Shown: piece after piece, positions 50,271 to 64,000 of the stretch | How the letters are laid out: every line of letters begins with the position of its first letter | Numbering within the stretch: the stretch's first letter is position 1 | DNA from: a virus | Length of the DNA stretch: 64,000 bases | Direction: 5' to 3' (one strand) | IMG/VR virus record: IMGVR_UViG_3300023174_000123 | Location: 1-64,000 of that record | Notes under the pieces: generated by a model | Seen by the model: the letters and a program-made list of their open reading frames with translations, nothing else | The model's database searches: none | Told to the model about the DNA's origin: nothing | Translations under genes and position numbers: made by a program

Positions 50271-50943
50271 ACAAATAATCAAAAACGAGCACAAAGAAAA
50301 TTTCAAGACTCGATACATCAAGTATCGAGCCGGAAGACTCAAGCATCAGTATTGGTTGTGGAATCGCAAACAAGATCAAAAAATCATAGACGAATATGAT
50401 GCCAAGATCTTGCGTAATTGTCAGCCTGGACGCACTGCTTTCTTTTCCAGTGCTGGTTACTATCTCAAAGACATTTGGCCCGAGATAGACTCTATTGAAA
50501 TGTATCCGGAGGTGCAGGAGTTTTATCCTGAAGTCATAACCGTGGAAAGCCGAAGCCAGTTGGCTGAAATTGTCACAGGCAAATACGATAACTTTGCTGT
50601 GGTAAACAATCGTGCCGACCACTGGGTATCCACACAGGGCCTGACCCAACACTTGCAAAATTATTCTAGTATCCTGAATCCAGGAGCTCGCGTGTTCTAT
50701 TCTTTTAGAGACACACAGATACACTATAACCGTCTCCGTATACAGGCTCGCCAACACTTCATGGACTGGGCCCTGGGCTTGAGTGACATTGGGCTGGATC
50801 TAGTCTGGTCTGACCTACAGTTTCGTCCCAAGATCAAAGACGGCCAGGGCAACTATGATGCCTTTGAAAATCCCGACACAGTCAATGGCAATTTAAAATT
50901 TTGGTTTGTTTATCAAGGACAGCCATGGAAGCCTGAACTATGA
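50257..50943 (+). CDS. Hypothetical protein, possible degenerate methyltransferase fold
   Basis: Start ATG 50257; KYDNFAV and ILNPGARVF weakly suggest a Rossmann methyltransferase. Confidence 0.55.
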   Translation: MRLVEQIIKNEHKENFKTRYIKYRAGRLKHQYWLWNRKQDQKIIDEYDAKILRNCQPGRTAFFSSAGYYLKDIWPEIDSIEMYPEVQEFYPEVITVESRSQLAEIVTGKYDNFAVVNNRADHWVSTQGLTQHLQNYSSILNPGARVFYSFRDTQIHYNRLRIQARQHFMDWALGLSDIGLDLVWSDLQFRPKIKDGQGNYDAFENPDTVNGNLKFWFVYQGQPWKPEL

Positions 50944-51473
50944 ATCATATAGTTTGCTACACCGGAGGAACCTGTGGAGATCTGATTGCGGCCATGATAG
51001 ATTCCACCGATGTAGAAGTTAAAAATCGTGTGATAATGCACGCCGAACAAAGGCAACGGCTTAAAAAACCGCACACCTTTGCCAACGATCAACAAAAGAC
51101 CGAATACCTTGACACTATATTCCAGACCTATAAGAGCGTGCCCAGTCATGATTTGAACTATCACGTGAACAACAGGCATAAATTTATAGCAATCACTGTG
51201 CAAGATTTTGCAACCGCTGTGTGGGCAGCCGAACGATTCAAACTGGTGCATAGACCACATGTGTGGCAAGAAATGACTCGTGCCTGTGGAGCCGACACTG
51301 TGGAGGACTATGCACAAATCTTGATTGATTATTCCCGCATGGTAGTGCAACATACTGATCAGGTGCTTGAATTAGAACGCATCGTCAAAGGGCATGCCGT
51401 GGATGATCTAAAACAATATGTAGACACTGACCTTGATCAGGGTTTATACTTGAACTGGTTAAACAGACAATGA
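50940..51473 (+). CDS. Hypothetical protein, possible sulfotransferase-like P-loop fold
   Basis: IVCYTGGTCGDLI start; ATGA overlaps at both ends. Confidence 0.55.
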   Translation: MNHIVCYTGGTCGDLIAAMIDSTDVEVKNRVIMHAEQRQRLKKPHTFANDQQKTEYLDTIFQTYKSVPSHDLNYHVNNRHKFIAITVQDFATAVWAAERFKLVHRPHVWQEMTRACGADTVEDYAQILIDYSRMVVQHTDQVLELERIVKGHAVDDLKQYVDTDLDQGLYLNWLNRQ

Positions 51474-52933
51474 GAACAGCAACTATTATCATACGCGACG
51501 AAGTCAATATCAAGATTGAAGGTCTTGAGTTAGATGCTCGTCGTAGTTGTGTCAATGCATTCAAATATGATGTGCCTTATGCACGGTATCTGCCTGCCGT
51601 GAGATTGGGTCGTTGGGACGGCAAGGTTTCGTATTTCCAACTAGGCGGTAGCACTTATGTGAACTTGTTGCCAGAAATCATACCCATATTAGAAAAGTTC
51701 AACTACGACATTGAAGTAGATGATCAGCGAGAATATTCCACCACTTTTGAATTCAAGCAAGTCACTGAAGACAGTTACAGCCATATAGCCTGGCCCAAAG
51801 GACATCCGGCCGCAGGTGAACCCATGAAACTGCGTGACTATCAGGTAGAGATCATCAACAACTTCTTGGCCAATCCACAGTGCCTGCAAGAGGTGGCCAC
51901 AGGTGCTGGTAAGACTGTGATGACCGCGGCACTCAGTGATGCTGTCACAGCCTATGGTCGTAGCATCGTGATCGTGCCCAACAAGAGCTTGGTCACGCAA
52001 ACAGAAAAAGACTACATCAACATGGGACTGGATGTGGGTGTGTACTTTGGCGATCGTAAAGAATGGGGGTGTCAGCACACTATTTGTACCTGGCAGAGCT
52101 TGAACGTGCTACTCAAAAACACAAAAAATGGCACCACCGAGGATGACTGCACCATAGGTGAGTTTATAGAAGGTGTGGCGTGCGTGATTGTGGACGAAGT
52201 GCATATGGCCAAGGCCGATGCACTGAAGACCTTGCTAACAGGAGTAATGAGTCGCATACCCATACGCTGGGGACTCACTGGAACCATACCCAAAGAAAAG
52301 TTTGAAAGCGTGGCGCTCTTGGTCAGTCTTGGTCCGGTAATCAGCAAGCTCAGTGCCAGTGAACTGCAAAGTCAAGGTGTCTTGGCACAGTGCCATGTGA
52401 ACATCGTGCAGTTGGAAGATCATGCAGAGTTCTCAAACTATCAAAGCGAGCTCAAATACTTGTTGGAAGAACCCGACAGGCTGAAAACCATAGCTGACCT
52501 GGTGCGACAAGTCAATGCCACAGGCAATACCTTGGTCCTGGTAGATCGTATCGCCGCAGGCCAGGCTCTAGTAGAACAACTCAAGGATGCAGTATTTGTT
52601 AGCGGTGCAACCAAAGCAAAGGATAGACAAGATGAATATGACGAAGTGGCTGTGGCAGACGGTAAAATCATCGTGGCCACTTATGGCGTTGCTGCTGTGG
52701 GTATCAATATACCTAGGATTTTTAACCTGGTGCTCATTGAACCAGGTAAGTCCTTTGTCCGTGTTATTCAAAGCATAGGACGTGGTATCCGCAAGGCCGA
52801 AGACAAGGATCATGTGCAGATCTGGGACGTGACCAGTACCTGTAGATTTGCCAAACGGCATCTAACCAAACGCAAGACCTTTTACAAAGAAGCCAACTAC
52901 CCATTCACACAGGAAAAGTTGCAGTGGAAGTAG
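51470..52933 (+). CDS. uvsW: SF2 DNA helicase (UvsW-like)
   Basis: LRDYQ, ATGAGKT, DEVH, GLTGT, GINIP, QSIGRGIR. Confidence 0.9.
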   Translation: MRTATIIIRDEVNIKIEGLELDARRSCVNAFKYDVPYARYLPAVRLGRWDGKVSYFQLGGSTYVNLLPEIIPILEKFNYDIEVDDQREYSTTFEFKQVTEDSYSHIAWPKGHPAAGEPMKLRDYQVEIINNFLANPQCLQEVATGAGKTVMTAALSDAVTAYGRSIVIVPNKSLVTQTEKDYINMGLDVGVYFGDRKEWGCQHTICTWQSLNVLLKNTKNGTTEDDCTIGEFIEGVACVIVDEVHMAKADALKTLLTGVMSRIPIRWGLTGTIPKEKFESVALLVSLGPVISKLSASELQSQGVLAQCHVNIVQLEDHAEFSNYQSELKYLLEEPDRLKTIADLVRQVNATGNTLVLVDRIAAGQALVEQLKDAVFVSGATKAKDRQDEYDEVAVADGKIIVATYGVAAVGINIPRIFNLVLIEPGKSFVRVIQSIGRGIRKAEDKDHVQIWDVTSTCRFAKRHLTKRKTFYKEANYPFTQEKLQWK

Positions 52934-52936
52934 TGG

Positions 52937-52964
52937 TTGCTCTTGCGAAAATATATGTTATAAT
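52937..52964 (+). promoter_or_regulatory. Extended -10 sigma70 promoter, leaderless
   Basis: TTGCTC-16 bp-TATAAT with TG; ATG 6 nt after the -10. Confidence 0.75.
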
Positions 52965-52970
52965 CAATGT

Positions 52971-53471
52971 ATGAGAATATTAACACTGGACAACGAACCA
53001 TTTGACCTAGATCACTTGCCAGAAGAAGTGGATGACATGAGATTTGCTATATTTGACAACAGCGATCCCAAAGATCCTGATTATCATTACATACCTTTGA
53101 TCTTTCTAGAAAGCTTCACAGCGCCGGCCTTGGTTTTACGCATCGGTGAATATAGAGTCAAAATGCCCGTGGACTGGCAAATCCTGATCGGCGAGCCCGA
53201 TCTTGGCGACTTGGAAGTCCTACCGTTGACAGCTATCAATGATCGCGGATTCAAGGCCTTCCAGTTTAATCCCTTGAGCAGTTTCAGACCCAGTTTTTTG
53301 GATGTAGAGATCATTGACGTGTATCAAGAGGTTACCTGGTATGCGCCCAAACTCAAGAACGGTCAGATGTTGTGTGTGCCTATAGGTGAAGGTCTCAAAC
53401 CCGACTGCGTATATTTTGTCAAAGATATCAGCAGAAACTGTGAAGTAGTAAACTATAATCAGGCCTGGTAG
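52971..53471 (+). CDS. Hypothetical beta-rich protein
   Basis: First gene of the operon; 166 aa. Confidence 0.75.
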   Translation: MRILTLDNEPFDLDHLPEEVDDMRFAIFDNSDPKDPDYHYIPLIFLESFTAPALVLRIGEYRVKMPVDWQILIGEPDLGDLEVLPLTAINDRGFKAFQFNPLSSFRPSFLDVEIIDVYQEVTWYAPKLKNGQMLCVPIGEGLKPDCVYFVKDISRNCEVVNYNQAW

Positions 53472-53917
53472 TGGAAAAACTCAGTATACAAAATGAAATG
53501 TCCCAGTTTGATCGCAAGAATCGCAGATTCTATGATGAACTGACCAACGAAGAAAAGAAAAAGTTTAGTAACTATCTCATGATACGCTGGGGCAGTTGTG
53601 TGCAAGGTTCAAGGGACCTACAAGAGTTTTATTTGATCTCTACCAATGAACGCTTGAACAAGAGATTTTTTGACATCAACCGCCATCCTCGATTGCAGTG
53701 GCTCATAGCTACTACAGTGAGCCCTGGCATGGGCACTCATAGACATCAATGGATAGCTCCCAAGAAAAAAGAAGCAGGAGCCACGGCCATACGTAAGCAG
53801 TTGGCTGAACTATATACACATCTCAAAGATGATGAACTGGACCTGTTGGCCAAGATTACCACAAAAAAAGACATAGACGAATATATAAAAGCCGCAGGGC
53901 AAGACACAAAAAAATGA
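53471..53917 (+). CDS. Clamp-loader small subunit-like protein (T4 gp62-like)
   Basis: KFSNYLMIRWGS...NERLN...LQWL...QWIAPKKK pattern resembles gp62 of T4-like phages. Confidence 0.55.
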   Translation: MEKLSIQNEMSQFDRKNRRFYDELTNEEKKKFSNYLMIRWGSCVQGSRDLQEFYLISTNERLNKRFFDINRHPRLQWLIATTVSPGMGTHRHQWIAPKKKEAGATAIRKQLAELYTHLKDDELDLLAKITTKKDIDEYIKAAGQDTKK

Positions 53918-54663
53918 AACAGTACAAAAATTTACTAGTCTCAGGGTGCAGTTTTAGTCAAGATTTTTGGTTTAATGGTATAGGCGGCGAACCTCCTAGC
54001 GAAACATCGCCAGGCGATTGTGTGTATATCACCGATCCTAAATTCTCAGTTGAGATGCCTAGAAGCTGGTCTGGATTCTTGGCAAAAAAATTAGAAGTTA
54101 CCAGTTTTGTGAATGTTGCGGCAAGTGCCCACGGAAACATATTGGTCGCACATTCTATTTTAGAATGTATAAACAGATTTTATTATACAGCGGAAGACAC
54201 GTTAGTAGTGATTAATCTTTCTGAACCATGGCGGCTCGATTTATTTTGTGAATATGATCATCCAGAAGTTGATAAAAAATATATTCCATGGAAGCAATCT
54301 TTTATACCTTATTCTTATTTAGATGCCAATGGTAAAATCACATCAGAGCTCCGTAAAAATATTGGTCTTGAGCAGGTAGGAGTTATCACATCAAATTCTA
54401 TAGATTTTTTATTTAATTTTTTACAAAACAAAAAAATAGATTTTTATTTTTTGTTAATGAGTGATTTTGATAACACTGTATTAAAACCGGTGATTGATAG
54501 ATTCAGAGAGCATCAGATAGAACTGACACCAGGATCAAACATGATCTCGTTTGGACAACTCACAAAAACATACGTATCAGAATCTAACTGGCATCTAGGA
54601 GTCAAAGGTGCCAGCCTGGTCGCCGATCAAATATATCGCCATATCAAAAGCAAACAAGAATGA
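53914..54663 (+). CDS. AT-rich SGNH-hydrolase-like accessory protein
   Basis: LLVSGCSFS, NVAASAHGN, LSEPWRLD, C-terminal WHLG..G. Confidence 0.6.
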   Translation: MKQYKNLLVSGCSFSQDFWFNGIGGEPPSETSPGDCVYITDPKFSVEMPRSWSGFLAKKLEVTSFVNVAASAHGNILVAHSILECINRFYYTAEDTLVVINLSEPWRLDLFCEYDHPEVDKKYIPWKQSFIPYSYLDANGKITSELRKNIGLEQVGVITSNSIDFLFNFLQNKKIDFYFLLMSDFDNTVLKPVIDRFREHQIELTPGSNMISFGQLTKTYVSESNWHLGVKGASLVADQIYRHIKSKQE

Positions 54664-55334
54664 AGTATACCTGTCAGTATTGTAAGAAGGACTTTATAAA
54701 GGAGAGTAGTCTTGCGGTGCACAGTTGCGAGCCGCGACGGCGTCGCATGGAAAAAGATGAAGCAGGTGTGCGATTAGGATTCCATGCTTATTTGAAGTTC
54801 TATGAGCTGACACAGGGTAGTGCAAAGTTAAAAACCCATGATGACTTTTGTGAAAGTCCTTACTATCGTGCCTTTGTAAAGTTTGGTCGCTACTGTGTGG
54901 ACATTCGTGCTGTCAATCCGGCACGTTTTGTAGAATGGGTACTAAAACAAAACAAAAAGATTGATCACTGGTGTCGAGATACTATATATACCGAATACCT
55001 AATAGACTATTTGCGTATAGAAAATATCAATGATGCTCTGGCCCGTGCCATGGAGTTTGGTATTGATTGGGCAGAGAAGTCCGGACATCCAGCAGAAGAT
55101 TGCTTGCGTTATGGCAACACAAATGCCATGGTCTATGCGATAACTGCCGGTCGCATCAGTCCGTGGATCGTTTATAATTGTGAAAGTGGTCAAAAGTTTT
55201 TGAGCGAACTTGATGCCACACAGATTGCCATGATATGGCCTTACATTGATTCAGAAGTGTGGATGAAAAAATTTGCAGACTATGTGGCAGATCAGGAATA
55301 TGCTCGAAATATATTGACAGAGGCAGGTTGGTAA
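54660..55334 (+). CDS. Hypothetical protein with N-terminal C2HC/C2H2-like zinc finger
   Basis: YTCQYCKKDFIKESSLAVHSC. Confidence 0.75.
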   Translation: MKYTCQYCKKDFIKESSLAVHSCEPRRRRMEKDEAGVRLGFHAYLKFYELTQGSAKLKTHDDFCESPYYRAFVKFGRYCVDIRAVNPARFVEWVLKQNKKIDHWCRDTIYTEYLIDYLRIENINDALARAMEFGIDWAEKSGHPAEDCLRYGNTNAMVYAITAGRISPWIVYNCESGQKFLSELDATQIAMIWPYIDSEVWMKKFADYVADQEYARNILTEAGW

Positions 55335-56737
55335 TGGAAAAAAATAAAGAAATTGATCTCAAAGATCACCATGTGGTTATTGCTGGAATGCCTTTGGTTA
55401 ATTCTATACATGCTCCATTGGCAGCACCTGCGGTACTGAAATCTTCTTTGAATCTATCTGGTATAAAAGCCACGGCCCTGGATCTTAACATTGAGGTTTT
55501 GTTAAAAATCAAATCTCATCCTGAATACAACAATCTATTAAAATTTTTCAAGGAGCAACAAGCTGAGGACTGGGTAACTCAGGAAATTTCAAAAATATTA
55601 TTTTATTGTGCTCATAGAATCATTGATTTAAAACCAACAGTGATTGCATTGAGTTTACTAACTTACGAATGTCAAAATTTTACACTTTGGCTGTGTGCTG
55701 TGTTACGTGATTTGTGCCCTGAAATCAAGATAGTGGCTGGAGGGCCTGGTATCAAATATTCAGTATCGAATTTTGATGATACGACCTTCCGAGACACTGC
55801 AAAAGAATTAAATCTAATAGATGACTGGATCGCCGGCGACGGTGATCAATCTTTAATTGAATATGTAAAAGGTAATTGTACTTTTCCTGGAATAAACAAT
55901 GATGTCTGGCAACCCATCGCCGATCTGGACTCTTTGCCTTATCCAGACTGGTCTGATTATAATTTTTATCTGTATTCTCAAAACTTTATGCCGATAGTAG
56001 ACGCCAAAGGCTGTGTTAGAAATTGTGAATTTTGTGACGTGATTGAGTATTGGAAAAAATTTCAATCCAGAGATGCAGAATCAATTTTTGAAGAAATGTT
56101 ATATCAAATGGAAAAATATAACATGAGAGATTTTGACTTCAGGAGCAGCATTACCAATGGCAATCTGCGAGAGTTTAAAAAATTGTTAAAGTTAATGGAC
56201 GACTACAACAAGGACAAATATAGGCCAGAGCAGATAAGTTGGAATGCCAGTTTTATTATACGACAACAAAGCCAACATACCGAAGAGATGTTTAGACAAA
56301 TGGGCGCCACCCATGCTACCTTGAGCCTGGGCGTGGAAAGTATCGTGCCCGAAGTTCGAAAAAAACTAGGCAAAACATTTGAAAATTCTGACATAGATTA
56401 TCATTTGCAAATGGCCGAAAAATATAATGTAAAAGTTATTTTAATGATTATAACCGGGTACCCTTCAGAAACTCTTCAAGATTATGAGTTTACCAAACAA
56501 TGGTTTCGAGATAGAGCACACTATAAAAATGTTATTTCGAGATTATTTTTGTCTCCGGCAGAGATCATACCCGGAACTCAATTACACAAGAATATGGACA
56601 AACATAAAATTATTCCTATCAAAGAAAATAAGAAATGGCAGACTGAGACCATAACCATCGAAGAGAGAAAAAAATATCACAATGAATTGGTACATTTATG
56701 CTCAAAAGAACTAGGATTTAACATTGAAGTCTACTAA
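55334..56737 (+). CDS. Cobalamin-binding-domain radical SAM enzyme (class B methyltransferase-like), AT-rich
   Basis: PLAAPAVLKS, KIVAGGP, GDGD, DLDSLPYPDW, KGCVRNCEFC, LGVES, ITGYPSET; start ATG 55334. Confidence 0.88.
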   Translation: MEKNKEIDLKDHHVVIAGMPLVNSIHAPLAAPAVLKSSLNLSGIKATALDLNIEVLLKIKSHPEYNNLLKFFKEQQAEDWVTQEISKILFYCAHRIIDLKPTVIALSLLTYECQNFTLWLCAVLRDLCPEIKIVAGGPGIKYSVSNFDDTTFRDTAKELNLIDDWIAGDGDQSLIEYVKGNCTFPGINNDVWQPIADLDSLPYPDWSDYNFYLYSQNFMPIVDAKGCVRNCEFCDVIEYWKKFQSRDAESIFEEMLYQMEKYNMRDFDFRSSITNGNLREFKKLLKLMDDYNKDKYRPEQISWNASFIIRQQSQHTEEMFRQMGATHATLSLGVESIVPEVRKKLGKTFENSDIDYHLQMAEKYNVKVILMIITGYPSETLQDYEFTKQWFRDRAHYKNVISRLFLSPAEIIPGTQLHKNMDKHKIIPIKENKKWQTETITIEERKKYHNELVHLCSKELGFNIEVY

Positions 56738-57116
56738 TATTAAATTACTGCTTGAATTCTCACATCCGGCGATTGATCTAAAAATTTTTGATAGGCATGG
56801 AAAGATATTGATTGATCAAACAAATAATCAATCAATATCATTGATTAATTTTTGTATATCCATGCCCAATCAACTTACCATTGCGATCGATAATGTGTTA
56901 CCTGGATACATTGTAAAGGTGTTAGAAATGAAAATAGGACCTATAAAATTATCTAATTCAATTCTTTCTCAAATTTTTTCATTTTACGATCAACAAGACA
57001 ATCAAGTTACCACCTATGTTTGGCGATCAAATGGAAAAGCAGTGGTTGATTTGTTTTCTGAAGATTGGATACAATATCATTTGCTGTATAGAAACAAAAT
57101 ACAAACTGACCAATAA
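56724..57116 (+). CDS. AT-rich hypothetical protein
   Basis: Fills the gap after the radical SAM gene; TTG start uncertain. Confidence 0.55.
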   Translation: MKSTNIKLLLEFSHPAIDLKIFDRHGKILIDQTNNQSISLINFCISMPNQLTIAIDNVLPGYIVKVLEMKIGPIKLSNSILSQIFSFYDQQDNQVTTYVWRSNGKAVVDLFSEDWIQYHLLYRNKIQTDQ

Positions 57117-57124
57117 AAATAATC

Positions 57125-57688
57125 ATGAGCGCAGACATCGATATTGATCTTGCAGACAGAGATCAGTTGTTGAAATTAATCCAGGCCGTTCCGGCACGAC
57201 AATCAAATCAAGGACAGGTGCGTCGCCACAACAGTGGTGTATATGTCACTGACATTCCCTACGATCCAATCAATGCTTGTGCAACTATTGACTATGAACA
57301 AGCAGAAAAACTGGGCTATTTTAAAATTGATCTATTGAATATGTCGGTGTATCAATTAATACAAAGTCCAGAACACTACCAAGAGATACTGACCAAAGAG
57401 GCGCCTTGGACAAGATTGTGGACCGACGCAGACTGGGCCAGCCAGTTAGTTCATGTAGGCAATTACCCAAACTTACTACAGTCAATGAAACCCGACAACA
57501 TCCCCAGGATGGCAGCTTTTATCAGTATCATACGACCTGGCAAAGCACACTTGCAAAATCGTCCCTGGGACCAAGTATTTGAGTCGGTTTGGGATGGGGA
57601 TGACAGCCGTGGATTTGTGTTCAAGAAATCGCATGCAATTTCTTATGCAGCCTTGGTGGCCTTGCACATGAACTTATTAAACACATGA
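57125..57688 (+). CDS. Miniature DnaE/Pol III alpha-like (C-family) polymerase core
   Basis: Collinear DIDID, RHNSGV, LGYFKIDLL, IRPG and FKKSHAISYA motifs in 187 aa. Confidence 0.8.
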   Translation: MSADIDIDLADRDQLLKLIQAVPARQSNQGQVRRHNSGVYVTDIPYDPINACATIDYEQAEKLGYFKIDLLNMSVYQLIQSPEHYQEILTKEAPWTRLWTDADWASQLVHVGNYPNLLQSMKPDNIPRMAAFISIIRPGKAHLQNRPWDQVFESVWDGDDSRGFVFKKSHAISYAALVALHMNLLNT

Positions 57689-58374
57689 CCATATTATACA
57701 GCAATGGATGTAGTTATACTGCTAACTATAATATTGAGAGATCAGAAAGATATCCTATATTGATAGCCAAACATTTTAAGTGGATGGTTCAGGATAAAGC
57801 TATTCCTGGAAATTGTAATAGCAAAATCATTCGTTCTGCAATGAGAGATTGCGTTAGCTTGCTGAAACAAGAAAAACCGATCGTGGCCATGATCCAATTG
57901 ACTCATCAAGAACGATTTGAATATGCGGGTAAGCCTACCAAAGAGAATGCGTGGAAGTACGGATTGTTGCATGACCAGGTAGAAAACATAGACAAACAAA
58001 TCTTTGATCAATTTGAATCTATAAATCCAATGGACGAAAAACATTGGCCCAAAGAGATTGTTCAGTATGCCAAACAACATTTAATTTTGCAAAAAATTGA
58101 TGCTTTGAATACTAATTTATTTCATAGTATCATTGGCCTGGCTTCTTTTTTTAGAACTAACAACATAAAATATTTGATCTATGCCGGTCCATCTTTTTAT
58201 AATCCAGAAATAGACAATGATCCTTTTTATAGATATCTGCTAAACGACAAAAATGTAATAGATTTAAATAATTTTAACATGTTGTCCATCACCGGGTTAT
58301 CAAAACATCCAGATTCCAGTGGCATGAAAAAGATAGCTGATTATTTTATTAATCTACTCGACGAACCAAAGTAA
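57685..58374 (+). CDS. AT-rich SGNH-hydrolase-like accessory protein
   Basis: LYSNGCSYT, AIPGNCNSKI.R, IQLTHQERFE, KHPDSSG...IAD. Confidence 0.65.
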   Translation: MTILYSNGCSYTANYNIERSERYPILIAKHFKWMVQDKAIPGNCNSKIIRSAMRDCVSLLKQEKPIVAMIQLTHQERFEYAGKPTKENAWKYGLLHDQVENIDKQIFDQFESINPMDEKHWPKEIVQYAKQHLILQKIDALNTNLFHSIIGLASFFRTNNIKYLIYAGPSFYNPEIDNDPFYRYLLNDKNVIDLNNFNMLSITGLSKHPDSSGMKKIADYFINLLDEPK

Positions 58375-58726
58375 TACTTTTTCTTTTGCTTTTTTTCCTA
58401 CCGATCTCGCCGAGACTGCATATGGGTCCATGCACGACTTCTAGATCTTTGTTGGTAAATGTGCGTAGATAAGGACGGAAAACGTCCCACTCACCTTTTA
58501 AGAATATGTTTATGGGCACAGTTCTGTTGCTTTCCCACCACCAAATGTTGGCCAGTTCTAGGAACCGGCGTTTGATTTCTATGTCTTGTATGGCGCCAAA
58601 ATCGTAGATGGTAGTAATGGCATCGTCTTGATTTTGTATGATACCCACGTATTCCGTGGTGGCATACACACACAAGGTAATAAACGGATACTTTTCCGCT
58701 AATTGGGCAAAAAAATCAGTGCTCAT
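58349..58726 (-). CDS. Hypothetical late protein
   Basis: 125 aa, WWWESNR..PINIFL; late promoter upstream. Confidence 0.75.
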   Translation of the reverse strand: MSTDFFAQLAEKYPFITLCVYATTEYVGIIQNQDDAITTIYDFGAIQDIEIKRRFLELANIWWWESNRTVPINIFLKGEWDVFRPYLRTFTNKDLEVVHGPICSLGEIGRKKSKRKSITLVRRVD

Positions 58727-58736
58727 AAGTTACGGA

Positions 58737-58781
58737 TATTTACCAAACCGTTTTTGAGCCAGGTCGAGATTTCGCTAAATA
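58737..58781. promoter_or_regulatory. Divergent late promoter pair
   Basis: GTAAATA on - (58737-58743) and CTAAATA on + (58775-58781, 6 nt to ATG). Confidence 0.75.
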
Positions 58782-58787
58782 CTCTGT

Positions 58788-59933
58788 ATGTATTCAACCC
58801 AAGTCTATATCTATCAGCAGATCACCAGAGTCTTGCTCATGGACACAGGTGCGGGCGAAACTTTTATCTATAGGTATGATCCTGTGTACGCCAAAGTCCT
58901 GACCATAAACAAAGGTGTTGATAATGTGCTCCTGTTTGAGTTTATCAACCAGCAAGAAAAACCTGTGAACATCACAGGTAGCACGTTCCTGTTCCGAGTG
59001 ATCAGCACCGAGGGTGATGTTTTACTTTTAGAAAAACCCATGGTGATCTTGAATGCTCCCACTGGCCGCGCCAAAGTAACCTTGACCAGCGCAGAACTTT
59101 TAGAAGTCTTGGCACAACCAGCCAACTACAGCATACAACGCAGCAGTGGAAACTTGGTAGAAGCAGTGTTTGTGGATGCTCAGGCCGGAGCCCGTGCTCC
59201 TGTAAACATTGTAGACAGCATCTTGCCACAGTATGTGCCAAGTGCACCACTCACAATACCCACTATCAAACTCAGCGCCCAGGGTAGCCCAGATGGTATT
59301 GCCTGGACTCAATGGCCTTCCAATCCATATTATTCTGGCAACCCCAACGGTGGAAATTACTACAACAGTTTTTTGAATACCGAATACTTCAGTAGTTTTA
59401 TTGAACCCACCAAAGGCGTTACCACAGTGCAGATGACCTTGGTGGGTTACACAGGCACGATCAAAGCACAGGCCGCAGAAAACTATCAAAGCATATTCTA
59501 CAACGTCACAGAGTCTACTACCTATTACGACGAAACCAGAACCATATACATGAACATTGTGGGATGGCATCCTATAATTAGATTGTGCTTCAACAACAGC
59601 ATTTTTGCCGTGCCAGATCAACCTGGCACTCCGGCACTGGCCACGGCCATTACAGAAAACGGTGTAGTCACTGCCATCAACGTGGTCAACGGTGGCAGCG
59701 GATATCTAGCACCGCCCAAGATCAACATCATTGGCAGCGGGTCCGGCGCTACAGCAGAAGCTACCATCTCGGGCGGTGTGGTCACAGGGATTACAGTGAC
59801 CAATGGCGGAAGTGGTTATTGGTATCTACCAAATGCCGGCTCAACCAGCGTGGTCAGTCCTGCTCCTCCGTCGACATCCAGCGCTGCTGTGGTAATCAGC
59901 ACCGGTTATGTGGTTGATCTATTGTATAGATAA
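58788..59933 (+). CDS. Virion structural protein (BppU-like Ig N-terminus, NGGSGY repeat domain)
   Basis: KGVDN...F.FINQQEKPVNITG; V..I.V.NGGSGY twice; late promoter. Confidence 0.6.
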   Translation: MYSTQVYIYQQITRVLLMDTGAGETFIYRYDPVYAKVLTINKGVDNVLLFEFINQQEKPVNITGSTFLFRVISTEGDVLLLEKPMVILNAPTGRAKVTLTSAELLEVLAQPANYSIQRSSGNLVEAVFVDAQAGARAPVNIVDSILPQYVPSAPLTIPTIKLSAQGSPDGIAWTQWPSNPYYSGNPNGGNYYNSFLNTEYFSSFIEPTKGVTTVQMTLVGYTGTIKAQAAENYQSIFYNVTESTTYYDETRTIYMNIVGWHPIIRLCFNNSIFAVPDQPGTPALATAITENGVVTAINVVNGGSGYLAPPKINIIGSGSGATAEATISGGVVTGITVTNGGSGYWYLPNAGSTSVVSPAPPSTSSAAVVISTGYVVDLLYR

Positions 59934-59945
59934 TACCAAACACTG

Positions 59946-59974
59946 TTGAATTTTACCAAAAATCATGTTACAAT
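59946..59974 (+). promoter_or_regulatory. Sigma70-type promoter, leaderless
   Basis: TTGAAT-17 bp-TACAAT with TG; ATG 6 nt after the -10. Confidence 0.75.
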
Positions 59975-59980
59975 AACAGC

Positions 59981-60964
59981 ATGATTGATGTGATCTCTTA
60001 CCTGCCCGCACGACGCAAGCCCAGTGCTTCGGGTTGGATCAGTTTCAATGCACCCTGCTGTGAGCACATGGGAGAAAGTCGAGATCGACGTAGTCGTGGC
60101 GGTATCAAAACAAGCGATGCGGGCTGGAGCTATCATTGTTTCAATTGTGGCTACACTGCCAGCTTTATCATGGGACGCAATCTCAGTTTCAAGGCTCGTA
60201 AACTGCTGTCATGGTTGGGTGTACCTCCAGAAGAAGTAGAACGCATCAACTTGGAAAGTCTCCGACACAAAAACATGGAAGGCCTGCTGACTGATCGTCA
60301 ACGTGTTAGCAATACCCTGCAGGGCATAGAGTTTGAAGAACGTGACCTGCCACCTGCGGCAGAACTGGTCACCACAGTGCATCCTACGCATTGGCAGTAT
60401 CTGCGTGCTCGTGGTGTGCCAGCAGACTACCCTGTGATGACAGTGCTGCAGACTGACAAGGTACACTGGACCCGACCACAGGTCATTGTACCTTTTACCT
60501 ATGACAATCGTGTGGTAGGCTACAGTTGCCGTATGCTGGACAATCGTCAGCCCAAGTATATCCATGACACACAGCCGGGCTATGTGTTTGGCACAGACTT
60601 GCAAGGTGCGGCGTGGCGTTATGCCCTAGTGGTAGAAGGTGTGTTTGATGCACTCAGCATAGGTGGCCTGGCAGTGTTGCATGCCGAAATCAATGATGCA
60701 CAGGCCCGACTCATACGCAGTCTTGATAGAGAAGTCATAGTGGTGCCTGATCAGGACCTGGCCGGAATGAAACTGGTGGATCGTGCTCTAGAGCTAGGGT
60801 GGAGTGTAAGCATGCCCGAGTGGCCCGCTGATGTAAAAGATGTCAACGATGCTGTGATTCGTTGGGGCAGATTGGCCACTGTGATAACTATCTTGCAGGC
60901 ACGGGAAACCAGCCGAATCAAAATAGAACTAAGAAAAAAATGGTTATTAAAACAACTGAACTAA
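59981..60964 (+). CDS. DNA primase (T4 gp61-like)
   Basis: Zn-binding APCC...YHCFNCG; TOPRIM VVEGVFD, PDQDLAG, KDVND. Confidence 0.9.
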   Translation: MIDVISYLPARRKPSASGWISFNAPCCEHMGESRDRRSRGGIKTSDAGWSYHCFNCGYTASFIMGRNLSFKARKLLSWLGVPPEEVERINLESLRHKNMEGLLTDRQRVSNTLQGIEFEERDLPPAAELVTTVHPTHWQYLRARGVPADYPVMTVLQTDKVHWTRPQVIVPFTYDNRVVGYSCRMLDNRQPKYIHDTQPGYVFGTDLQGAAWRYALVVEGVFDALSIGGLAVLHAEINDAQARLIRSLDREVIVVPDQDLAGMKLVDRALELGWSVSMPEWPADVKDVNDAVIRWGRLATVITILQARETSRIKIELRKKWLLKQLN

Positions 60965-61527
60965 AAAATATCGTTGTTGTTGGAGATAGTTTTTCTGCAG
61001 ATACTGGCAATGACATCAGCTGGGTAGCTAAATTATCTAATAACTATAATGTAAAAAATTTTAGTCAACGAGGAATTTCAGAATACCGACTTTATAATAT
61101 TATACTAAAGAACATAGAGGAAATTTCCAAGGCCGACACAATAATTATTTTTCATACCAATCCCGATCGTGTATTTGTGCCAAACCACGTGCAGTTTCAA
61201 TCTCGACAATTACAAACACACCCTCACATGGATATGGTAGCGAACGATGCGTTAAATGATAAATGTTGGAAAAAGATCGCCGATTATTACTACAGATATT
61301 TTTATGATCAAGGACAACAAAATTGCATTTATGAACTGTTGGTTGAAAAAATTGATAGGTTGGTAAAAATACAGAAAATCCATTGTTCTGGGTTCAACGT
61401 AGCATGTGAATCTATTACAATGAACTTGTTTTATCAGACAAAAATAGATCATCCTGGAACAATTAATCATTTTAATTCTGCCGGCAATCAATTTGTTTAC
61501 AATTATTTAGAAAGTATAATTTGTTAA
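60940..61527 (+). CDS. AT-rich SGNH-hydrolase-like accessory protein
   Basis: IVVVGDSFS, NFSQRGISE, FHTNPDRV, INHFNSAGN; start ATG 60940. Confidence 0.65.
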   Translation: MVIKTTELKNIVVVGDSFSADTGNDISWVAKLSNNYNVKNFSQRGISEYRLYNIILKNIEEISKADTIIIFHTNPDRVFVPNHVQFQSRQLQTHPHMDMVANDALNDKCWKKIADYYYRYFYDQGQQNCIYELLVEKIDRLVKIQKIHCSGFNVACESITMNLFYQTKIDHPGTINHFNSAGNQFVYNYLESIIC

Positions 61528-62936
61528 AAGACTACGGACTTGAAGTCCAACGCCTATTCTTAGAAATGATGTTGCAAGACGCAGAGAGTTATGTGCGTGT
61601 GCAGAACATCTACAATCCAGAAAACTTTGATCGTAGTCTGAGACCTGCGGCTGAGTTTATCGCCCGGCACAGTGACGATCACAAGACCCTGCCCACGGCA
61701 GACCAGATACGAGCCAGCACTGGTGTTGCACTCAATCATATTCCAGATCTCAACGAAGGACACTTTGAGTGGTTCATGACCGAGTTTGAAGGATTTACTA
61801 GACGTCAAGAATTAGAACGTGCCATTCTTAAAAGTGCAGACTTGTTGGAAAAGGGCGAGTATGATCCTGTGGAGAAACTGATCAAAGATGCTGTACAGAT
61901 ATCGTTGACCAAAGACATGGGCACAGACTACTGGTCCGATCCCAAAACACGTATCAACAAGTATTTTAATTCAGGCGGACAAGTGTCAACAGGTTGGCCA
62001 CAGATGGACAAGATCTTGTATGGTGGCTTTAGCCGTGGCGAACTCAACATTTTTGCAGGCGGATCAGGATCTGGAAAGAGCTTGGTCATGATGAACATAG
62101 CACTCAGTTGGTTGCAGGCAGGACTGTCGGGTGTGTATATCAGTTTAGAACTCAGTGAAGAACTATGTGCCCTGAGAACTGATGCCATGTTGGCCGGCAT
62201 GAGCACCAAAGAGATACGCAAGGACATAGATCAGACTGAACTCAAGGTCAAGCTTGTGAGCAAGAAAGCCGGACAGTATCGTATCAAAGCTCTGCCAGCA
62301 CAAAGCAACATCAATGACATCCGTAGTTACATCAAAGAAGTGCAAGTGCAAACAGGATTGAAAGTGGATTTTGTCATGTGTGATTATTTAGACTTGCTGA
62401 TGCCTGTGAGTGCCAAAGTCAGCCCCAATGACTTGTTTGTCAAAGACAAGTATGTGAGTGAGGAACTACGTAACTTGGCCAAAGAACTCAACGTGTTATT
62501 TGTGACAGCCAGTCAGTTGAATCGTAGTGCCGTGGAGGAAATTGAATTTGATCACAGTCATATCTCGGGCGGTATTTCAAAGATCAATACAGCGGATAAT
62601 GTGTTTGGTATCTTTACAAGTCGTGCCATGCGTGAACGCGGCAAGTATCAAATACAATGTATGAAGAGCCGTAGTAGTACAGGTGTAGGACAAAAGATTG
62701 ACTTGGATTATAACATAGAAACCATGCGTATCACTGATCCAGGTGAAGATGCTAGTCCTGTAAATTCTTTCAAAAAGCCAGATATTTTGAGCAGTATCCG
62801 TACACAGAGTCGTGCCTTGCCGTCGGCAACAGACAATGAACAAGAATCGGACTCAATAGAAAACACAGGAAAAATCACAGCAGATGTTCAGAGTGCCAAA
62901 CTCAAACAATTATTAGGAAAAATCAAAACCACATGA
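61521..62936 (+). CDS. Replicative DnaB-like helicase (T4 gp41-like)
   Basis: GGSGSGKS, ISLELSE, DYLDL, TASQLNR, KSR. Confidence 0.93.
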   Translation: MLKDYGLEVQRLFLEMMLQDAESYVRVQNIYNPENFDRSLRPAAEFIARHSDDHKTLPTADQIRASTGVALNHIPDLNEGHFEWFMTEFEGFTRRQELERAILKSADLLEKGEYDPVEKLIKDAVQISLTKDMGTDYWSDPKTRINKYFNSGGQVSTGWPQMDKILYGGFSRGELNIFAGGSGSGKSLVMMNIALSWLQAGLSGVYISLELSEELCALRTDAMLAGMSTKEIRKDIDQTELKVKLVSKKAGQYRIKALPAQSNINDIRSYIKEVQVQTGLKVDFVMCDYLDLLMPVSAKVSPNDLFVKDKYVSEELRNLAKELNVLFVTASQLNRSAVEEIEFDHSHISGGISKINTADNVFGIFTSRAMRERGKYQIQCMKSRSSTGVGQKIDLDYNIETMRITDPGEDASPVNSFKKPDILSSIRTQSRALPSATDNEQESDSIENTGKITADVQSAKLKQLLGKIKTT

Positions 62937-63586
62937 ATCTAATTTGTTTCCCTCATTACACTTGTGGCGGATTACTATGTGACATCATGAACAAAACATT
63001 TTCTAAAGTTGCATCTAATGGTGGTATCGCTTCAATATATCATGCACTTGGCAAGATAGGTGATGCAGACACAGAGTTTGTGGATTATGATTCTCAGGAT
63101 CTGATCAAAAAAATACAGGAAATAAACTGTGATCAATCAACATGGGTTGGCACACACTGCTGGCCAGGAAAACTGGATTTGTCAATGTTTAATCGTGTAA
63201 TAGCAGTAACTACTACCAGTTATCGCAGCAAGTTGTATCGTTGGACACGAGCTTATCATCATTATTACTTGAAATCAATTCCGTGGACTAGCCTACAAGG
63301 GCAACACAGGATTGACAAGGAAAGAGAAACTGCTAAAAATTATCTCAAATCATTTGATCCTGTGTTTCACCCAAATGTGATCAACATAGAATTTTCAGAG
63401 ATTGTAGAAAATTCAATCGAGTTTCAACAGCTGATATACCCAGAAAAAATTAACGATCATCTTGAACGTTGGAAAAGTATAAACAAATTCCTGTATGAAG
63501 ATAATATCTGGAATGGAATTCCATTCAAACGTTTTTACGAAGCAGAATCTGAGTGCAATTTAGACAAATATTATGTCTACCAATAA
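62933..63586 (+). CDS. AT-rich hypothetical protein, possible sulfotransferase-like fold
   Basis: LICFPHYTCGGLL start resembles 50940..51473; ATGA overlap. Confidence 0.55.
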   Translation: MNLICFPHYTCGGLLCDIMNKTFSKVASNGGIASIYHALGKIGDADTEFVDYDSQDLIKKIQEINCDQSTWVGTHCWPGKLDLSMFNRVIAVTTTSYRSKLYRWTRAYHHYYLKSIPWTSLQGQHRIDKERETAKNYLKSFDPVFHPNVINIEFSEIVENSIEFQQLIYPEKINDHLERWKSINKFLYEDNIWNGIPFKRFYEAESECNLDKYYVYQ

Positions 63587-64000
63587 GATTTTTTGTTTTG
63601 GAGACGGATATGCTCATGGCCATATATGGCCCGAATGGCCGCAAATTTTACAGGCATTGTTGCCATCGAATCAAGTAGTTGTCAAATCTGGAATAGGTGC
63701 CGGTAATGAATTTCTAATAGATCAACTGTTAAACTCGTCTTGTCAGGGACATTCGGTGATTTTTCAATGGGCTCAAGCCAACAGATTTGATAAATTGCTA
63801 CAGGATGATCATTGGATGTGCATGGCCAAACAAGACCCTGTGTATTTTTTTAATTTTGAAACTAATTTATCTGGCACCTGGTGGCTATCCAGTGCCAGTC
63901 AAAATCAAAAAATAAAAGAATATCATAATTTTTTTGTTCAAAGTCAGCAGGCACAACTGCGTGAAAAAAATCAAAAAATTTTGGTAGAAAATTATCTACA
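63573..64000 (+). CDS. SGNH-like accessory protein, 3' truncated (absent from the ORF track)
   Basis: Open from ATG 63573 to window end: MSTNKIFCFGDGYA...WP...GAGNEF...IFQWAQANRFD. Confidence 0.65.
   Translation, partial: MSTNKIFCFGDGYAHGHIWPEWPQILQALLPSNQVVVKSGIGAGNEFLIDQLLNSSCQGHSVIFQWAQANRFDKLLQDDHWMCMAKQDPVYFFNFETNLSGTWWLSSASQNQKIKEYHNFFVQSQQAQLREKNQKILVENYL

What the first reader, a model, noticed from the sequence alone, without database searches (positions are those of the whole stretch)
57125..57688. A 187-aa minimal C-family DNA polymerase: DnaE catalytic motifs without PHP, most of the fingers, clamp-binding or OB domains
Seen: one frame encodes, in DnaE order, DIDID, RHNSGV, YEQAEKLGYFKIDLL, IRPG and GFVFKKSHAISYA. 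Known: Pol III alpha is over 1000 aa and uses PDxDxD plus KxD aspartates, with HAxGV, RPG and FNKSH motifs spread over several hundred residues. Here the intervening sequence is removed while all three aspartates are kept, which argues for selected miniaturisation and not decay. No other DnaE pieces are recognisable in the flanks. Inference: a stand-alone nucleotidyltransferase, primer extender or repair polymerase, or the catalytic subunit of a multi-protein enzyme built with the co-transcribed 52971, gp62-like and Zn-finger genes.
Basis: partly seen in the sequence, partly recalled or inferred. Interest (0 to 1): 0.85.

Follow-up and report, generated by a model that had tools for sequence, protein, structure and literature searches.

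The report
Half of a split mini Pol III
This 187-residue gene of an uncultured freshwater giant phage is the metal-binding half of a two-piece, stripped-down relative of the bacterial replicative DNA polymerase, an arrangement predicted by computer in 2021 and, as far as I could find, still untested at the bench.

Summary
It is a true C-family polymerase relative: phrog_11778 at E 7e-51, and a profile of 82 diverse homologues hits only DnaE chains at E below 1e-4. An AlphaFold model (pLDDT 96.3) matches only PolC and DnaE at Z 6.0-9.9 over 181-185 of 187 residues; the next fold scores Z 4.8.

It is not a stand-alone enzyme. It starts at the DxD strand and lacks the GS-motif, NTP-binding half of the palm. 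In three close relatives a separate 170-185 aa gene about 100 kb downstream supplies that half. By collinearity it would lie about 73 kb past the end of this 85-kb fragment. A co-fold of the two halves scored 0.91 against 0.00 for controls.

A natural 375-aa fusion exists. D4, D6, K67 and D69 are invariant, and dN/dS is about 0.09.

Iyer et al. 2021 (PMC7824862) already describe this split minimal Pol III alpha of group 2.2 jumbo phages. This scan has reached the same verdict on other genomes. One modest addition: a 224-aa Zn-finger gene is always just upstream.

The parts
57125..57688 (+). C-terminal (metal- and template-binding) unit of the split minimal Pol III alpha, 187 aa
   Evidence: ORF; phrog_11778 E 7.4e-51; profile hits to DnaE only; AF2 pLDDT 96.3; VIA Z 9.9-6.0 to PolC/DnaE only
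57134..57148 (+). DIDID, residues 4-8: first palm strand carrying the two metal-binding Asp (D4, D6) plus D8
   Evidence: D4 and D6 invariant and D8 >=90% in 82 diverse sequences; all three 81 of 81 in close relatives; strand E5-9 in the model; contacts the GS loop of the N-unit in the co-fold
57227..57238 (+). H35-N-S-G38, the HxxG hairpin motif of the palm
   Evidence: H35 and G38 >=90% conserved, 81 of 81 in relatives; aligned to the H-C-G-G of a 557-aa DnaE-like protein
57323..57331 (+). K67-I-D69: strand carrying the third catalytic Asp
   Evidence: K67 and D69 invariant; aligned to E. coli K553-F-D555
57533..57541 (+). R137-P-G139 finger motif
   Evidence: P138 invariant, R137 >=90%; aligned to the E. 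coli segment ending ...RPG at residue 641
57623..57634 (+). K167-K-S-H170 finger motif
   Evidence: K167 and H170 >=90%, 81 of 81 in relatives; aligned to E. coli N757-K-S-H760; touches the N-unit in the co-fold
54660..55334 (+). 224-aa C2H2-like Zn-finger protein (phrog_11058), conserved upstream neighbour and candidate third subunit
   Evidence: phrog_11058 E 2.4e-51; upstream on the same strand in 80 of 80 related loci; stop overlaps or abuts the C-unit start (TAATG where read) in 44 of 80; exactly 224 aa in 53 distinct sequences; present in 93 isolate phage records, next to the C-unit where I compared coordinates
55334..57116 (+). AT-rich insertion between the Zn-finger gene and the C-unit: B12-binding/radical-SAM gene (55334-56737) plus a 130-aa ORF (56724-57116)
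   Evidence: Radical_SAM E 1.9e-9; GC 0.355 and 0.298 against 0.425-0.443 for the flanking core genes; absent in 44 of 80 relatives; same arrangement bridged by contigs of independent 2023 drinking-water runs
52971..53917 (+). Two conserved upstream genes of unknown function (phrog_11279, 166 aa; phrog_11758, 148 aa)
   Evidence: PHROG hits E 5.7e-50 and 2.6e-19; no Pfam hit; same order in the related loci wherever the flank reaches
58349..58726 (-). Conserved convergent neighbour, 125 aa (phrog_11637), function unknown
   Evidence: E 2.2e-33; downstream on the opposite strand in 79 of 80 related loci

Best explanation
The ORF encodes the C-terminal unit of the split minimal DNA polymerase III alpha of group 2.2 jumbo phages. 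It carries the second half of the Pol-beta-like palm: the DxD strand, a short beta-hairpin where DnaE has its thumb, and the strand with the third Asp. It also carries a cut-down fingers domain with the RPG and K-x-S-H motifs. It cannot form an active site alone, because the first half of the palm (a helical part, one beta-strand and the G-R-G-S triphosphate-binding loop) sits on a separate protein of about 170 aa, encoded about 100 kb away in complete relatives and off the end of this contig. The two proteins most likely associate by strand-to-strand pairing (N-unit 133-138 against C-unit 5-9) into a heterodimer of about 357 residues, which is the palm plus partial fingers of a C-family polymerase without PHP, thumb, clamp-binding or OB parts. 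Shown here: homology, fold, conservation, purifying selection, the separate N-unit in relatives, a natural fusion, and a confident co-fold. Inferred only: that the heterodimer polymerises DNA. My odds are about 55-60% for templated dNTP incorporation. The likeliest role is an auxiliary enzyme beside the phage's family B replicase, such as primer extension or gap filling next to the adjacent primase and DnaB-like helicase genes.
For: Family: phrog_11778 E 7.4e-51; 96 isolate jumbo-phage records hold a homologue, 95 of them over >=80% of the query. Homology to DnaE: the profile of A1 hits 9 DnaE chains at E 4.7e-6 to 8.8e-5 and nothing else below 0.4; hhalign of A1 against a 557-aa DnaE-like phage protein gives E 4.3e-5. 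Fold: AF2 pLDDT 96.3, pTM 0.88. The first 17 Foldseek rows are all C-family polymerases. VIA-align against 48,161 representative chains: the top 7 are all PolC/DnaE, Z 9.9 (rmsd 3.5, 185 aligned) to 6.0, and the next is Z 4.8 over 80 residues; the model spans E. coli 399-777. Active site: D4, D6, K67, D69 and P138 are invariant in 82 sequences drawn from 50%-identity clusters. Selection: 70 of 80 pairs with the window have saturated dS at about 80% protein identity; 115 pairs with 0.05<dS<1.5 give median dN/dS 0.09, maximum 0.236. Missing half: P0184 finds an N-unit in 3 of 5 long related contigs, 97.6-108.5 kb downstream of the C-unit. The other two contigs end before that distance. The N-unit ORF ends in ...EFLR and matches PF07733 positions 29-94 at E 2.4e-6. 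8000 of 8000 scored N-unit candidates match, and 92 isolate records hold an N-unit. Natural fusion: P0184, 375 aa, carries both halves; PF07733 E 4.8e-16. Co-fold of the window C-unit (A1) with the N-unit of relative G001 (A2): score 0.91 in 3 of 3 runs, best of 3 controls 0.00. That mark was reached by 58 of 80 solved complexes and 2 of 110 mismatched pairs; the runs agree in >=94% of contacts; partner pLDDT >=88. The interface joins C-unit 2-10 and 167-170 to N-unit 131-144. Literature: Iyer et al. 2021 describe exactly this split.
Against: No N-unit is on this contig, so for this phage its presence is inferred from collinear relatives. The co-fold pairs proteins from two phages whose C-units are about 78% identical, used my own alignments, and concerns halves of a fold solved many times as one chain, so the pass may reflect memory of DnaE structures. 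Pfam itself barely sees the protein: DNA_pol3_finger E 0.15, below cut-off. A single-sequence search of PDB finds nothing. Structural Z values of 6-10 are only moderate. No thumb, clamp-binding or OB part is present, so how a primer-template would be held is unexplained. No activity data exist in any paper I could find. No evidence of expression was obtained.
Confidence: 0.85

Rival explanations
1. A stand-alone 187-aa minimal polymerase or nucleotidyltransferase: the single chain binds metals, nucleotide and primer by itself.
For: All three Asp and the finger motifs lie on this one chain. No other DnaE piece is on the 85-kb contig. Of the best 150 listed representatives, 149 are no longer than 233 aa.
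Against: The chain begins at the DxD strand, and the GS-motif half of the palm is absent. That half exists as a separate gene in 3 of 5 long relatives and in 92 isolate records. A natural fusion joins them. The co-fold buries residues 2-10 against the N-unit.
Confidence: 0.04
2. The heterodimer is real but is not a templated DNA polymerase. It may be a different nucleotidyltransferase, for example untemplated tailing, RNA-primer handling or synthesis of a small nucleotide product, as in other Pol-beta-fold enzymes.
For: Thumb, clamp-binding and OB parts are all missing. The phage lineage already has an 889-aa family B polymerase. No activity is published in the papers I searched.
Against: The finger motifs that mark the C-family fingers domain in DnaE (RPG, K-x-S-H) are kept and are invariant or nearly so. 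The best structural match is a PolC ternary complex with DNA and dGTP. The gene sits in a replication module between a UvsW-like helicase and primase plus DnaB-like helicase.
Confidence: 0.12
3. A catalytically dead structural or regulatory remnant of a once full-length phage DnaE.
For: About half of the DnaE 399-777 stretch is deleted. One relative (G001) also carries an intact 557-aa PHP-less DnaE-like gene, which shows that longer forms circulate in this lineage.
Against: D4, D6, K67 and D69 are invariant across 82 diverse sequences. dN/dS is 0.03-0.24. Length is stable at 186-197 aa in 81 of 81 close relatives. The 557-aa gene is in only 1 of 5 relatives.
Confidence: 0.03
4. A conventional split DnaE rejoined by a split intein (protein trans-splicing), as recalled for cyanobacterial dnaE.
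For: Two distant genes encode consecutive parts of one domain.
Against: There is no room for intein halves. The N-unit's match to PF07733 runs to residue 184 of 185 and the C-unit's DxD starts at residue 4. The natural fusion joins the two with only a short linker. No PHP domain exists anywhere in the complete relative G001, while the controls rang in 14 of 14 genomes.
Confidence: 0.01

Closest known systems
Split minimal DNA polymerase III alpha of group 2.2 jumbo phages (Iyer, Anantharaman, Krishnan, Burroughs, Aravind 2021, Viruses 13:63, PMC7824862; passages read)
   Same: It matches their C-terminal 'Mg2+- and DNA-template-binding' unit. It is phage-specific, has a separate N-terminal NTP-binding unit encoded by a distant gene, accompanies a family B polymerase, and no other Pol III domain is in the genome. 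Homologues lie in PA5oct-like, Rak2/PBECO4-like and Atu_ph07-like phages.
   Different: This copy comes from an uncultured freshwater phage, 35-42% identical to the isolate versions. In its lineage the two units lie about 100 kb apart, against about 30-34 kb in three isolates. An AT-rich radical-SAM cassette separates it from its usual Zn-finger neighbour. The paper's main text does not mention that Zn-finger neighbour; I could not see its figures or supplements.
Bacterial Pol III alpha (DnaE) and PolC
   Same: Same palm and fingers fold over E. coli 399-777, Thermus 460-834 and Geobacillus PolC 970-1292. Same DxD, KxD, RPG and K-S-H motifs.
   Different: 187 aa (about 357 with the N-unit) against chains of 910-1220 residues. 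No PHP, thumb, clamp-binding or OB parts. The palm is divided between two polypeptides.
PHP-less single-chain DnaE-like polymerases of phages (the 557-aa gene in relative G001; 'DnaE-like DNA polymerase III alpha' of Streptomyces phages)
   Same: A phage-borne C-family core without PHP. PF07733 E 1.5e-38 and DNA_pol3_finger E 1.9e-14. Motifs align with the C-unit profile at E 4.3e-5.
   Different: Those are one chain of about 560 aa with an uninterrupted palm and longer fingers. They are sporadic in this lineage, in 1 of 5 relatives, and are only distant relatives of the split form.

Membership tests
C-family DNA polymerase catalytic core (Pol III alpha / DnaE / PolC) | Pol-beta-like palm with a DxD pair and a third acidic residue on a neighbouring strand | tested here: met
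   D4, D6 and D69 invariant in 82 sequences; K67-x-D69 aligned to E. coli K553-x-D555; fold match Z 9.9-6.0 to PolC/DnaE only
C-family DNA polymerase catalytic core (Pol III alpha / DnaE / PolC) | N-terminal palm subdomain with the G-S triphosphate-binding loop on the same chain | tested here: not met
   The ORF starts at the DxD strand. No PF07733, P0184 N-half, GS regex or N-unit profile match anywhere on the 85-kb contig. A separate gene supplies it in relatives.
C-family DNA polymerase catalytic core (Pol III alpha / DnaE / PolC) | Fingers domain with RPG and (N/K)KSH motifs | tested here: met
   R137, P138, K167 and H170 conserved and aligned to the E. coli segments ending at 641 and 756-760. 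The fingers are shortened: about 97 E. coli residues between the two motifs correspond to about 10 profile positions.
C-family DNA polymerase catalytic core (Pol III alpha / DnaE / PolC) | PHP domain | tested here: not met
   No Pfam PHP hit in the protein. PF02811 found in 0 of 4 records, including the complete relative G001, while the control rang in 14 of 14 genomes.
C-family DNA polymerase catalytic core (Pol III alpha / DnaE / PolC) | Thumb, clamp-binding and OB/C-terminal domains | tested here: not met
   187 residues span E. coli 399-777 with roughly half of that stretch skipped, and nothing follows. No Pfam domain beyond a weak finger match.
C-family DNA polymerase catalytic core (Pol III alpha / DnaE / PolC) | Template-directed DNA synthesis | not testable with these tools
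   Needs a primer-extension assay. No published assay found.
Split minimal Pol III alpha of group 2.2 jumbo phages, C-terminal unit | Protein of about 190 aa holding the Mg-binding and template-binding subdomains; member of the phage family so annotated | tested here: met
   phrog_11778 E 7.4e-51 over 3-186; 35-42% identity to the PA5oct, Phosso, Atu_ph07 and PBECO4 genes, some annotated 'DNA polymerase III alpha'
Split minimal Pol III alpha of group 2.2 jumbo phages, C-terminal unit | A separate N-terminal NTP-binding unit encoded by a distant gene of the same genome | tested here: inconclusive
   Met in 3 of 5 long related contigs. Own contig ends 28 kb after the C-unit, and by collinearity with G001 (ligase at +26.9 against +26.6 kb, 96% identical) the N-unit would lie about 73 kb beyond the end.
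Split minimal Pol III alpha of group 2.2 jumbo phages, C-terminal unit | Host genome is a group 2 jumbo phage with family B polymerase, UvsW-type helicase and DnaB | tested here: inconclusive
   UvsW-like helicase and DnaB-like helicase are in the window. An 889-aa family B polymerase frame is present in relatives G001 and G002 but not on the own fragment.

The most novel reading that the evidence does not exclude
The two-piece palm is only the core of a larger phage-specific enzyme. The strictly 224-aa C2H2-like Zn-finger protein may be a third subunit that stands in for the missing thumb or DNA-holding parts. Its gene is always immediately upstream of the C-unit, its stop overlaps the C-unit start in most relatives, and it is found in about the same set of isolate jumbo phages. 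If so, the assembly would work as a primer-extension polymerase at the neighbouring primase and DnaB-like helicase, making it a minimal multi-subunit C-family replisome part with no cellular counterpart.
Probability: 0.2. Interest if true: 0.6.

Novelty: new member of a known kind. Interest (0 to 1): 0.3.

Why it matters
C-family polymerases are the replicases of all bacteria, and every studied one is a chain of about 900 residues or more. A natural version of about 357 residues in two pieces would define the smallest working core of this polymerase class. Iyer et al. also proposed it as a model of the ancestral form. For this window the value is mainly corrective. The gene should be annotated as 'split minimal Pol III alpha, C-terminal unit', not as a stand-alone polymerase, and the idea is not new. 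What remains open, and testable in cultured relatives such as PA5oct-like or PBECO4-like phages, is whether the heterodimer is active, on what substrate, and whether the conserved Zn-finger neighbour belongs to it.

Tried and rejected
Searches that gave nothing useful on the C-unit:
- Pfam on the single protein gave only DNA_pol3_finger at E 0.15, below cut-off.
- phmmer of the single protein against PDB gave no relevant hit.
- A megablast of 50000-64000 against isolate phages gave no match.
- The search for longer (fused) relatives of the window protein scored none of 675 word-sharing candidates. That is weak evidence. The one fusion I know, P0184, came from the representative library.

N-unit on the own contig: not found by PF07733, P0184, a GS-motif regex or the A2 profile. 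The contig is a 25% fragment, so this is no evidence that the phage lacks it.

Zn-finger protein as a hidden DnaE piece (my own early idea, from eyeballing a GS-like stretch): rejected.
- hhalign against the 557-aa DnaE-like protein gave probability 0.4%.
- A profile against PDB gave only insignificant C2H2 hits at E >= 0.09.
- The ESM Atlas returned only viral hypothetical or C2H2 clusters and no structure.
- Its AF2 model was too poor to search (pLDDT 64.2, pTM 0.43), so I ran no fold search on it.

Other checks:
- The 'gp62-like' label for 53471-53917 has no Pfam hit and only phrog_11758, of unknown function.
- Paralogy of the AT-rich inserted ORFs: blastp all-against-all of 10 ORFs gave no pair at E <= 0.01. 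Pfam gave only sub-threshold hits. I do not call them a family or SGNH proteins.
- Expression: the one RNA run laid (X13) gave a single 191-base contig inside the radical-SAM gene and nothing on the C-unit. Run X5 covered only parts. No conclusion on transcription.
- Timinskas et al. 2014 (PMC3919608) has no occurrence of 'phage', so it does not cover this form.
- A 2026 preprint on a split phage polymerase (PMC13648687; listing and start of abstract only) concerns chimalliviruses, not this system.
- Convergence of the three Asp in space could not be measured, because the tools return no coordinates.
- I could not see the supplementary files or figures of Iyer et al. They may list the neighbours, including the Zn-finger gene.
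Full report
OBSERVATION. The ORF listing gives one ORF at 57125..57688 on the + strand, ATG start, 187 aa. The window is the first 64 kb of an 85,331-base IMG/VR virus contig with a CheckV completeness of 25%. It is therefore a fragment of a phage of roughly 340 kb.

IT BELONGS TO A LARGE, UNIFORMLY SHORT FAMILY. Pfam alone barely sees it: DNA_pol3_finger at E 0.15, below cut-off. PHROGs places it in phrog_11778, labelled 'DNA polymerase' with a profile of 197 positions, at E 7.4e-51 over residues 3-186. A tblastn search finds it in 96 isolate phage records at 35-42% identity. All listed rows are jumbo phages or partial records of them, including PA5oct-like, PBECO4/Rak2-like, CBB, Atu_ph07 and Phosso. 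Some are annotated 'DNA polymerase III alpha'.

In the 5.8-billion-protein collection, 7959 of the 8000 scored candidates match at E <= 0.001, and the best 120 are 186-209 aa. In the 50%-identity representative library, 364 proteins match at E <= 0.001. Of the best 150 listed, 149 are at most 233 aa and one (P0184) is 375 aa. The short length is the norm, so this copy is not a unique remnant.

HOMOLOGY TO DnaE IS REAL. I aligned the window protein with 81 of those 150 representatives, leaving out fragments, partial matches and the fusion. D4, D6, K67, D69 and P138 are invariant. D8, H35, G38, R137, K140, K167 and H170 are at least 90% conserved. The profile of that alignment hits nine DnaE chains of E. 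coli, Thermus and M. tuberculosis at E 4.7e-6 to 8.8e-5, and nothing else below 0.4. It places K67-x-D69 on E. coli K553-x-D555, the RPG motif on the segment ending at 641, and F-K-K-S-H on F756-H760.

An AlphaFold2 model built on this alignment is very confident (pLDDT 96.3, pTM 0.88). The first 17 Foldseek rows are all C-family polymerases. VIA-align against 48,161 representative chains puts seven C-family polymerases on top:
- Geobacillus PolC: Z 9.9, rmsd 3.5, 185 residues aligned.
- M. tuberculosis DnaE1: Z 9.1.
- Thermus Pol III alpha: Z 8.9.
- The remaining four go down to Z 6.0.
- The next fold is a HAD cap at Z 4.8 over 80 residues.

The 187 residues span E. coli 399-777. About half of that stretch is deleted, including the region I recall as the thumb and about 87 residues between RPG and KSH. 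Nothing follows residue 777.

WHAT IS MISSING, AND WHERE IT IS. The chain starts three residues before the DxD strand. In the 375-aa representative P0184 the same C-terminal part (residues 190-373) is preceded by a segment with the classic G-R-G-S loop, and PF07733 matches it at E 4.8e-16. So the window protein lacks the first half of the palm.

P0184 finds only the known ORF on the own contig. PF07733, a GS regex and an N-unit profile also find nothing there. I searched five long IMG/VR contigs whose C-units are 78-84% identical to the window's. P0184 finds a second, separate match in three of them:
- G001 (337 kb, terminal repeats, 100% complete): C-unit at 17.5 kb, N-unit at 117.3 kb.
- G002: 23.9 kb and 132.4 kb.
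- G003: 23.6 kb and 121.2 kb.

The other two contigs end before that distance. The N-unit ORF is 185 aa, probably 170 from the second Met, which is the length of most homologues. It ends in ...EFLR and matches PF07733 positions 29-94. It is as abundant as the C-unit: 8000 of 8000 scored candidates match, and it occurs in 92 isolate phage records. In three isolates the two units are 30-34 kb apart.

The own contig is collinear with G001. Its last gene, a ligase, lies 26.9 kb after the C-unit, against 26.6 kb in G001, at 96% identity. The N-unit would therefore lie about 73 kb beyond the contig end.

DO THE HALVES FIT? I co-folded the window C-unit (alignment A1) with the G001 N-unit (alignment A2). 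The score was 0.91 in 3 of 3 runs, with the best of 3 controls at 0.00. That mark was reached by 58 of 80 solved complexes and 2 of 110 mismatched pairs. The runs agree in at least 94% of contacts, and the partner's pLDDT is at least 88. The interface joins C-unit 2-10 (the DxD strand), 41-49, 63-66 and 167-170 to N-unit 131-144 (the strand and GS loop) and 67-76. This is what a reconstituted palm and active site would look like.

Three caveats apply. I used my own alignments, so the calibration counts hold only roughly. The two proteins come from two related phages. And they are halves of a fold solved many times as one chain, so the pass may be memory of DnaE and not evidence that these copies bind.

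SELECTION. Across the 80 related loci plus the window, all CDS are intact and 186-197 aa long. D4, D6, D8, H35, G38, K67, D69, R137, P138, G139, K167 and H170 are kept in 81 of 81. Against the window, dS is saturated in 70 of 80 pairs while proteins stay about 80% identical. In the 115 pairs with 0.05 < dS < 1.5, median dN/dS is 0.09 and the maximum is 0.236.

CONTEXT. The gene order is conserved in the 80 loci wherever the flanks reach: UvsW-like helicase, phrog_11279, phrog_11758, Zn-finger protein (phrog_11058), C-unit, phrog_11637 on the opposite strand, a virion-type protein, primase, and DnaB-like helicase. It recurs in PA5oct-like PAC2 and in Phosso.

The Zn-finger gene is upstream in 80 of 80 loci. 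Its stop overlaps or abuts the C-unit start in 44 of 80 (TAATG in the four loci I read). The other 36 carry inserts of 354-2543 bases. It is exactly 224 aa in 53 distinct sequences. It occurs in 93 isolate records with the same organism breakdown as the C-unit, and it lies next to the C-unit in the records whose coordinates I compared (PA5oct, PBECO4, CBB, Phosso, Atu_ph07). I found no fold or family for it beyond a C2H2-like finger.

In the window a 1.8-kb AT-rich insert sits at the junction. It holds a B12-binding/radical-SAM gene and a 130-aa ORF, with GC 0.30-0.36 against 0.42-0.44 for the flanking genes. The inserted gene now uses the TAATG start. Contigs from independent drinking-water metagenomes of 2023 bridge 54954-57619 with 4 differing letters and 55259-58374 with 5. 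The arrangement is therefore not an assembly artefact.

REST OF THE GENOME. Relatives G001 and G002 encode an 889-aa family B polymerase frame far downstream. The own fragment does not reach it. No PHP domain is found in G000, G001, G002 or G003, while the control rang in 14 of 14 genomes. G001 alone also carries a single-chain 557-aa PHP-less DnaE-like gene: PF07733 E 1.5e-38, fingers E 1.9e-14, present in 1 of 5 relatives, and 26-27% identical to 'DnaE-like' genes of Streptomyces phages.

LITERATURE. I read passages of Iyer et al. 2021 (PMC7824862). [quoted passage not shown] They suggest it may cooperate with the family B enzyme in synthesis of one strand or in repair.

Their main text has no occurrence of C2H2 or zinc finger. 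I could not see their figures or supplements. Five full-text searches turned up no biochemical test of this enzyme. Sharanji's genome paper merely lists a 'DNA polymerase III DnaE' gene (passage). Weinheimer and Aylward 2022 note PF07733 as a marker of one marine jumbo-phage cluster (passage). Earlier follow-ups of this scan reached the same verdict on other genomes. I found the paper independently.

MECHANISM AND ODDS. Shown: homology, fold, an invariant catalytic triad, purifying selection, a separate N-unit in relatives, a natural fusion and a confident co-fold.

Inferred: the two proteins form a heterodimer of about 357 residues whose composite site uses D4, D6 and D69 for the metals. It would use the N-unit GS loop plus R137 and K167/H170 for the incoming nucleotide. 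My odds:
- About 0.85 that this gene is the C-terminal unit of that split enzyme.
- About 0.55-0.6 that the enzyme is a templated DNA polymerase.
- About 0.2 that the Zn-finger protein is a third subunit.

Its place between helicase and primase-helicase genes makes primer extension or gap filling beside the family B replicase the likeliest role. This draws on my recollection that Bacillus DnaE extends primers before PolC takes over. That is recalled and not tested here. H170 aligns with E. coli H760. I recall that residue as important for sugar selection, also untested here.

VERDICT. This is a new member of a known, computationally described kind, and the scan has met it repeatedly. The bench question is still open.

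Noticed in passing
window 53914-54663, 55334-57116, 57685-58374, 60940-61527, 62933-63586, 63573-63998: Small AT-rich ORFs (GC 0.30-0.36 against 0.42-0.51 for core genes) sit singly at the junctions of core replication genes. Relatives carry different inserts at the same junctions: 36 of 80 between the Zn-finger gene and the C-unit, and 17 of 79 between the C-unit and phrog_11637. blastp finds no similarity among the window's inserts at E <= 0.01. First readers already noted these; I only computed GC and the frequencies.
   Followed up: partly
L094:220-1893 (-), i.e. G001:C1:93752-95422: A complete relative genome carries a single-chain 557-aa PHP-less DnaE-like gene (PF07733 E 1.5e-38, fingers E 1.9e-14) in addition to the split form. 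Iyer et al. state that phages with the split version hold no other Pol III domains. It is in 1 of 5 relatives, 36.5% identical to a gene of an uncultured 484-kb phage and 26-27% to Streptomyces phage 'DnaE-like' genes.
   Followed up: partly
L093:1249-2725 and L091:1276-2807; L004:8130-9164: The N-unit gene is followed by a short ORF and then a Cpn10 (GroES-like) gene (PF00166 E 1.6e-6) in the freshwater relatives. A 'chaperonin 10 Kd subunit' gene also follows in the Vibrio phage 2.275.O record, so this second neighbourhood is conserved as well.
   Followed up: no
window 54660-58374: Near-identical DNA (0.94-0.95 of sampled words) occurs in drinking-water metagenomes of 2023, from a different study than the lake-water run that may be the source. 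Two of the five differing letters fall in the C-unit (57173 A>C, 57392 A>G). By my reading they change K17 and T90, both non-conserved positions.
   Followed up: partly
L005:287-2161 (+), contig 65618-67492, just beyond the window: A 625-aa ORF matches only phrog_455 of unknown function (E 1.2e-28). An earlier first-reader note calls it a PolX-like polymerase fused to a ligase-like domain. I did not test that.
   Followed up: no
L005:5327-6223 (+) and window 55334-56737: The contig carries two separate radical-SAM genes: phrog_13987 at E 1.8e-9 downstream, and the B12-binding/radical-SAM insert next to the C-unit.
   Followed up: no
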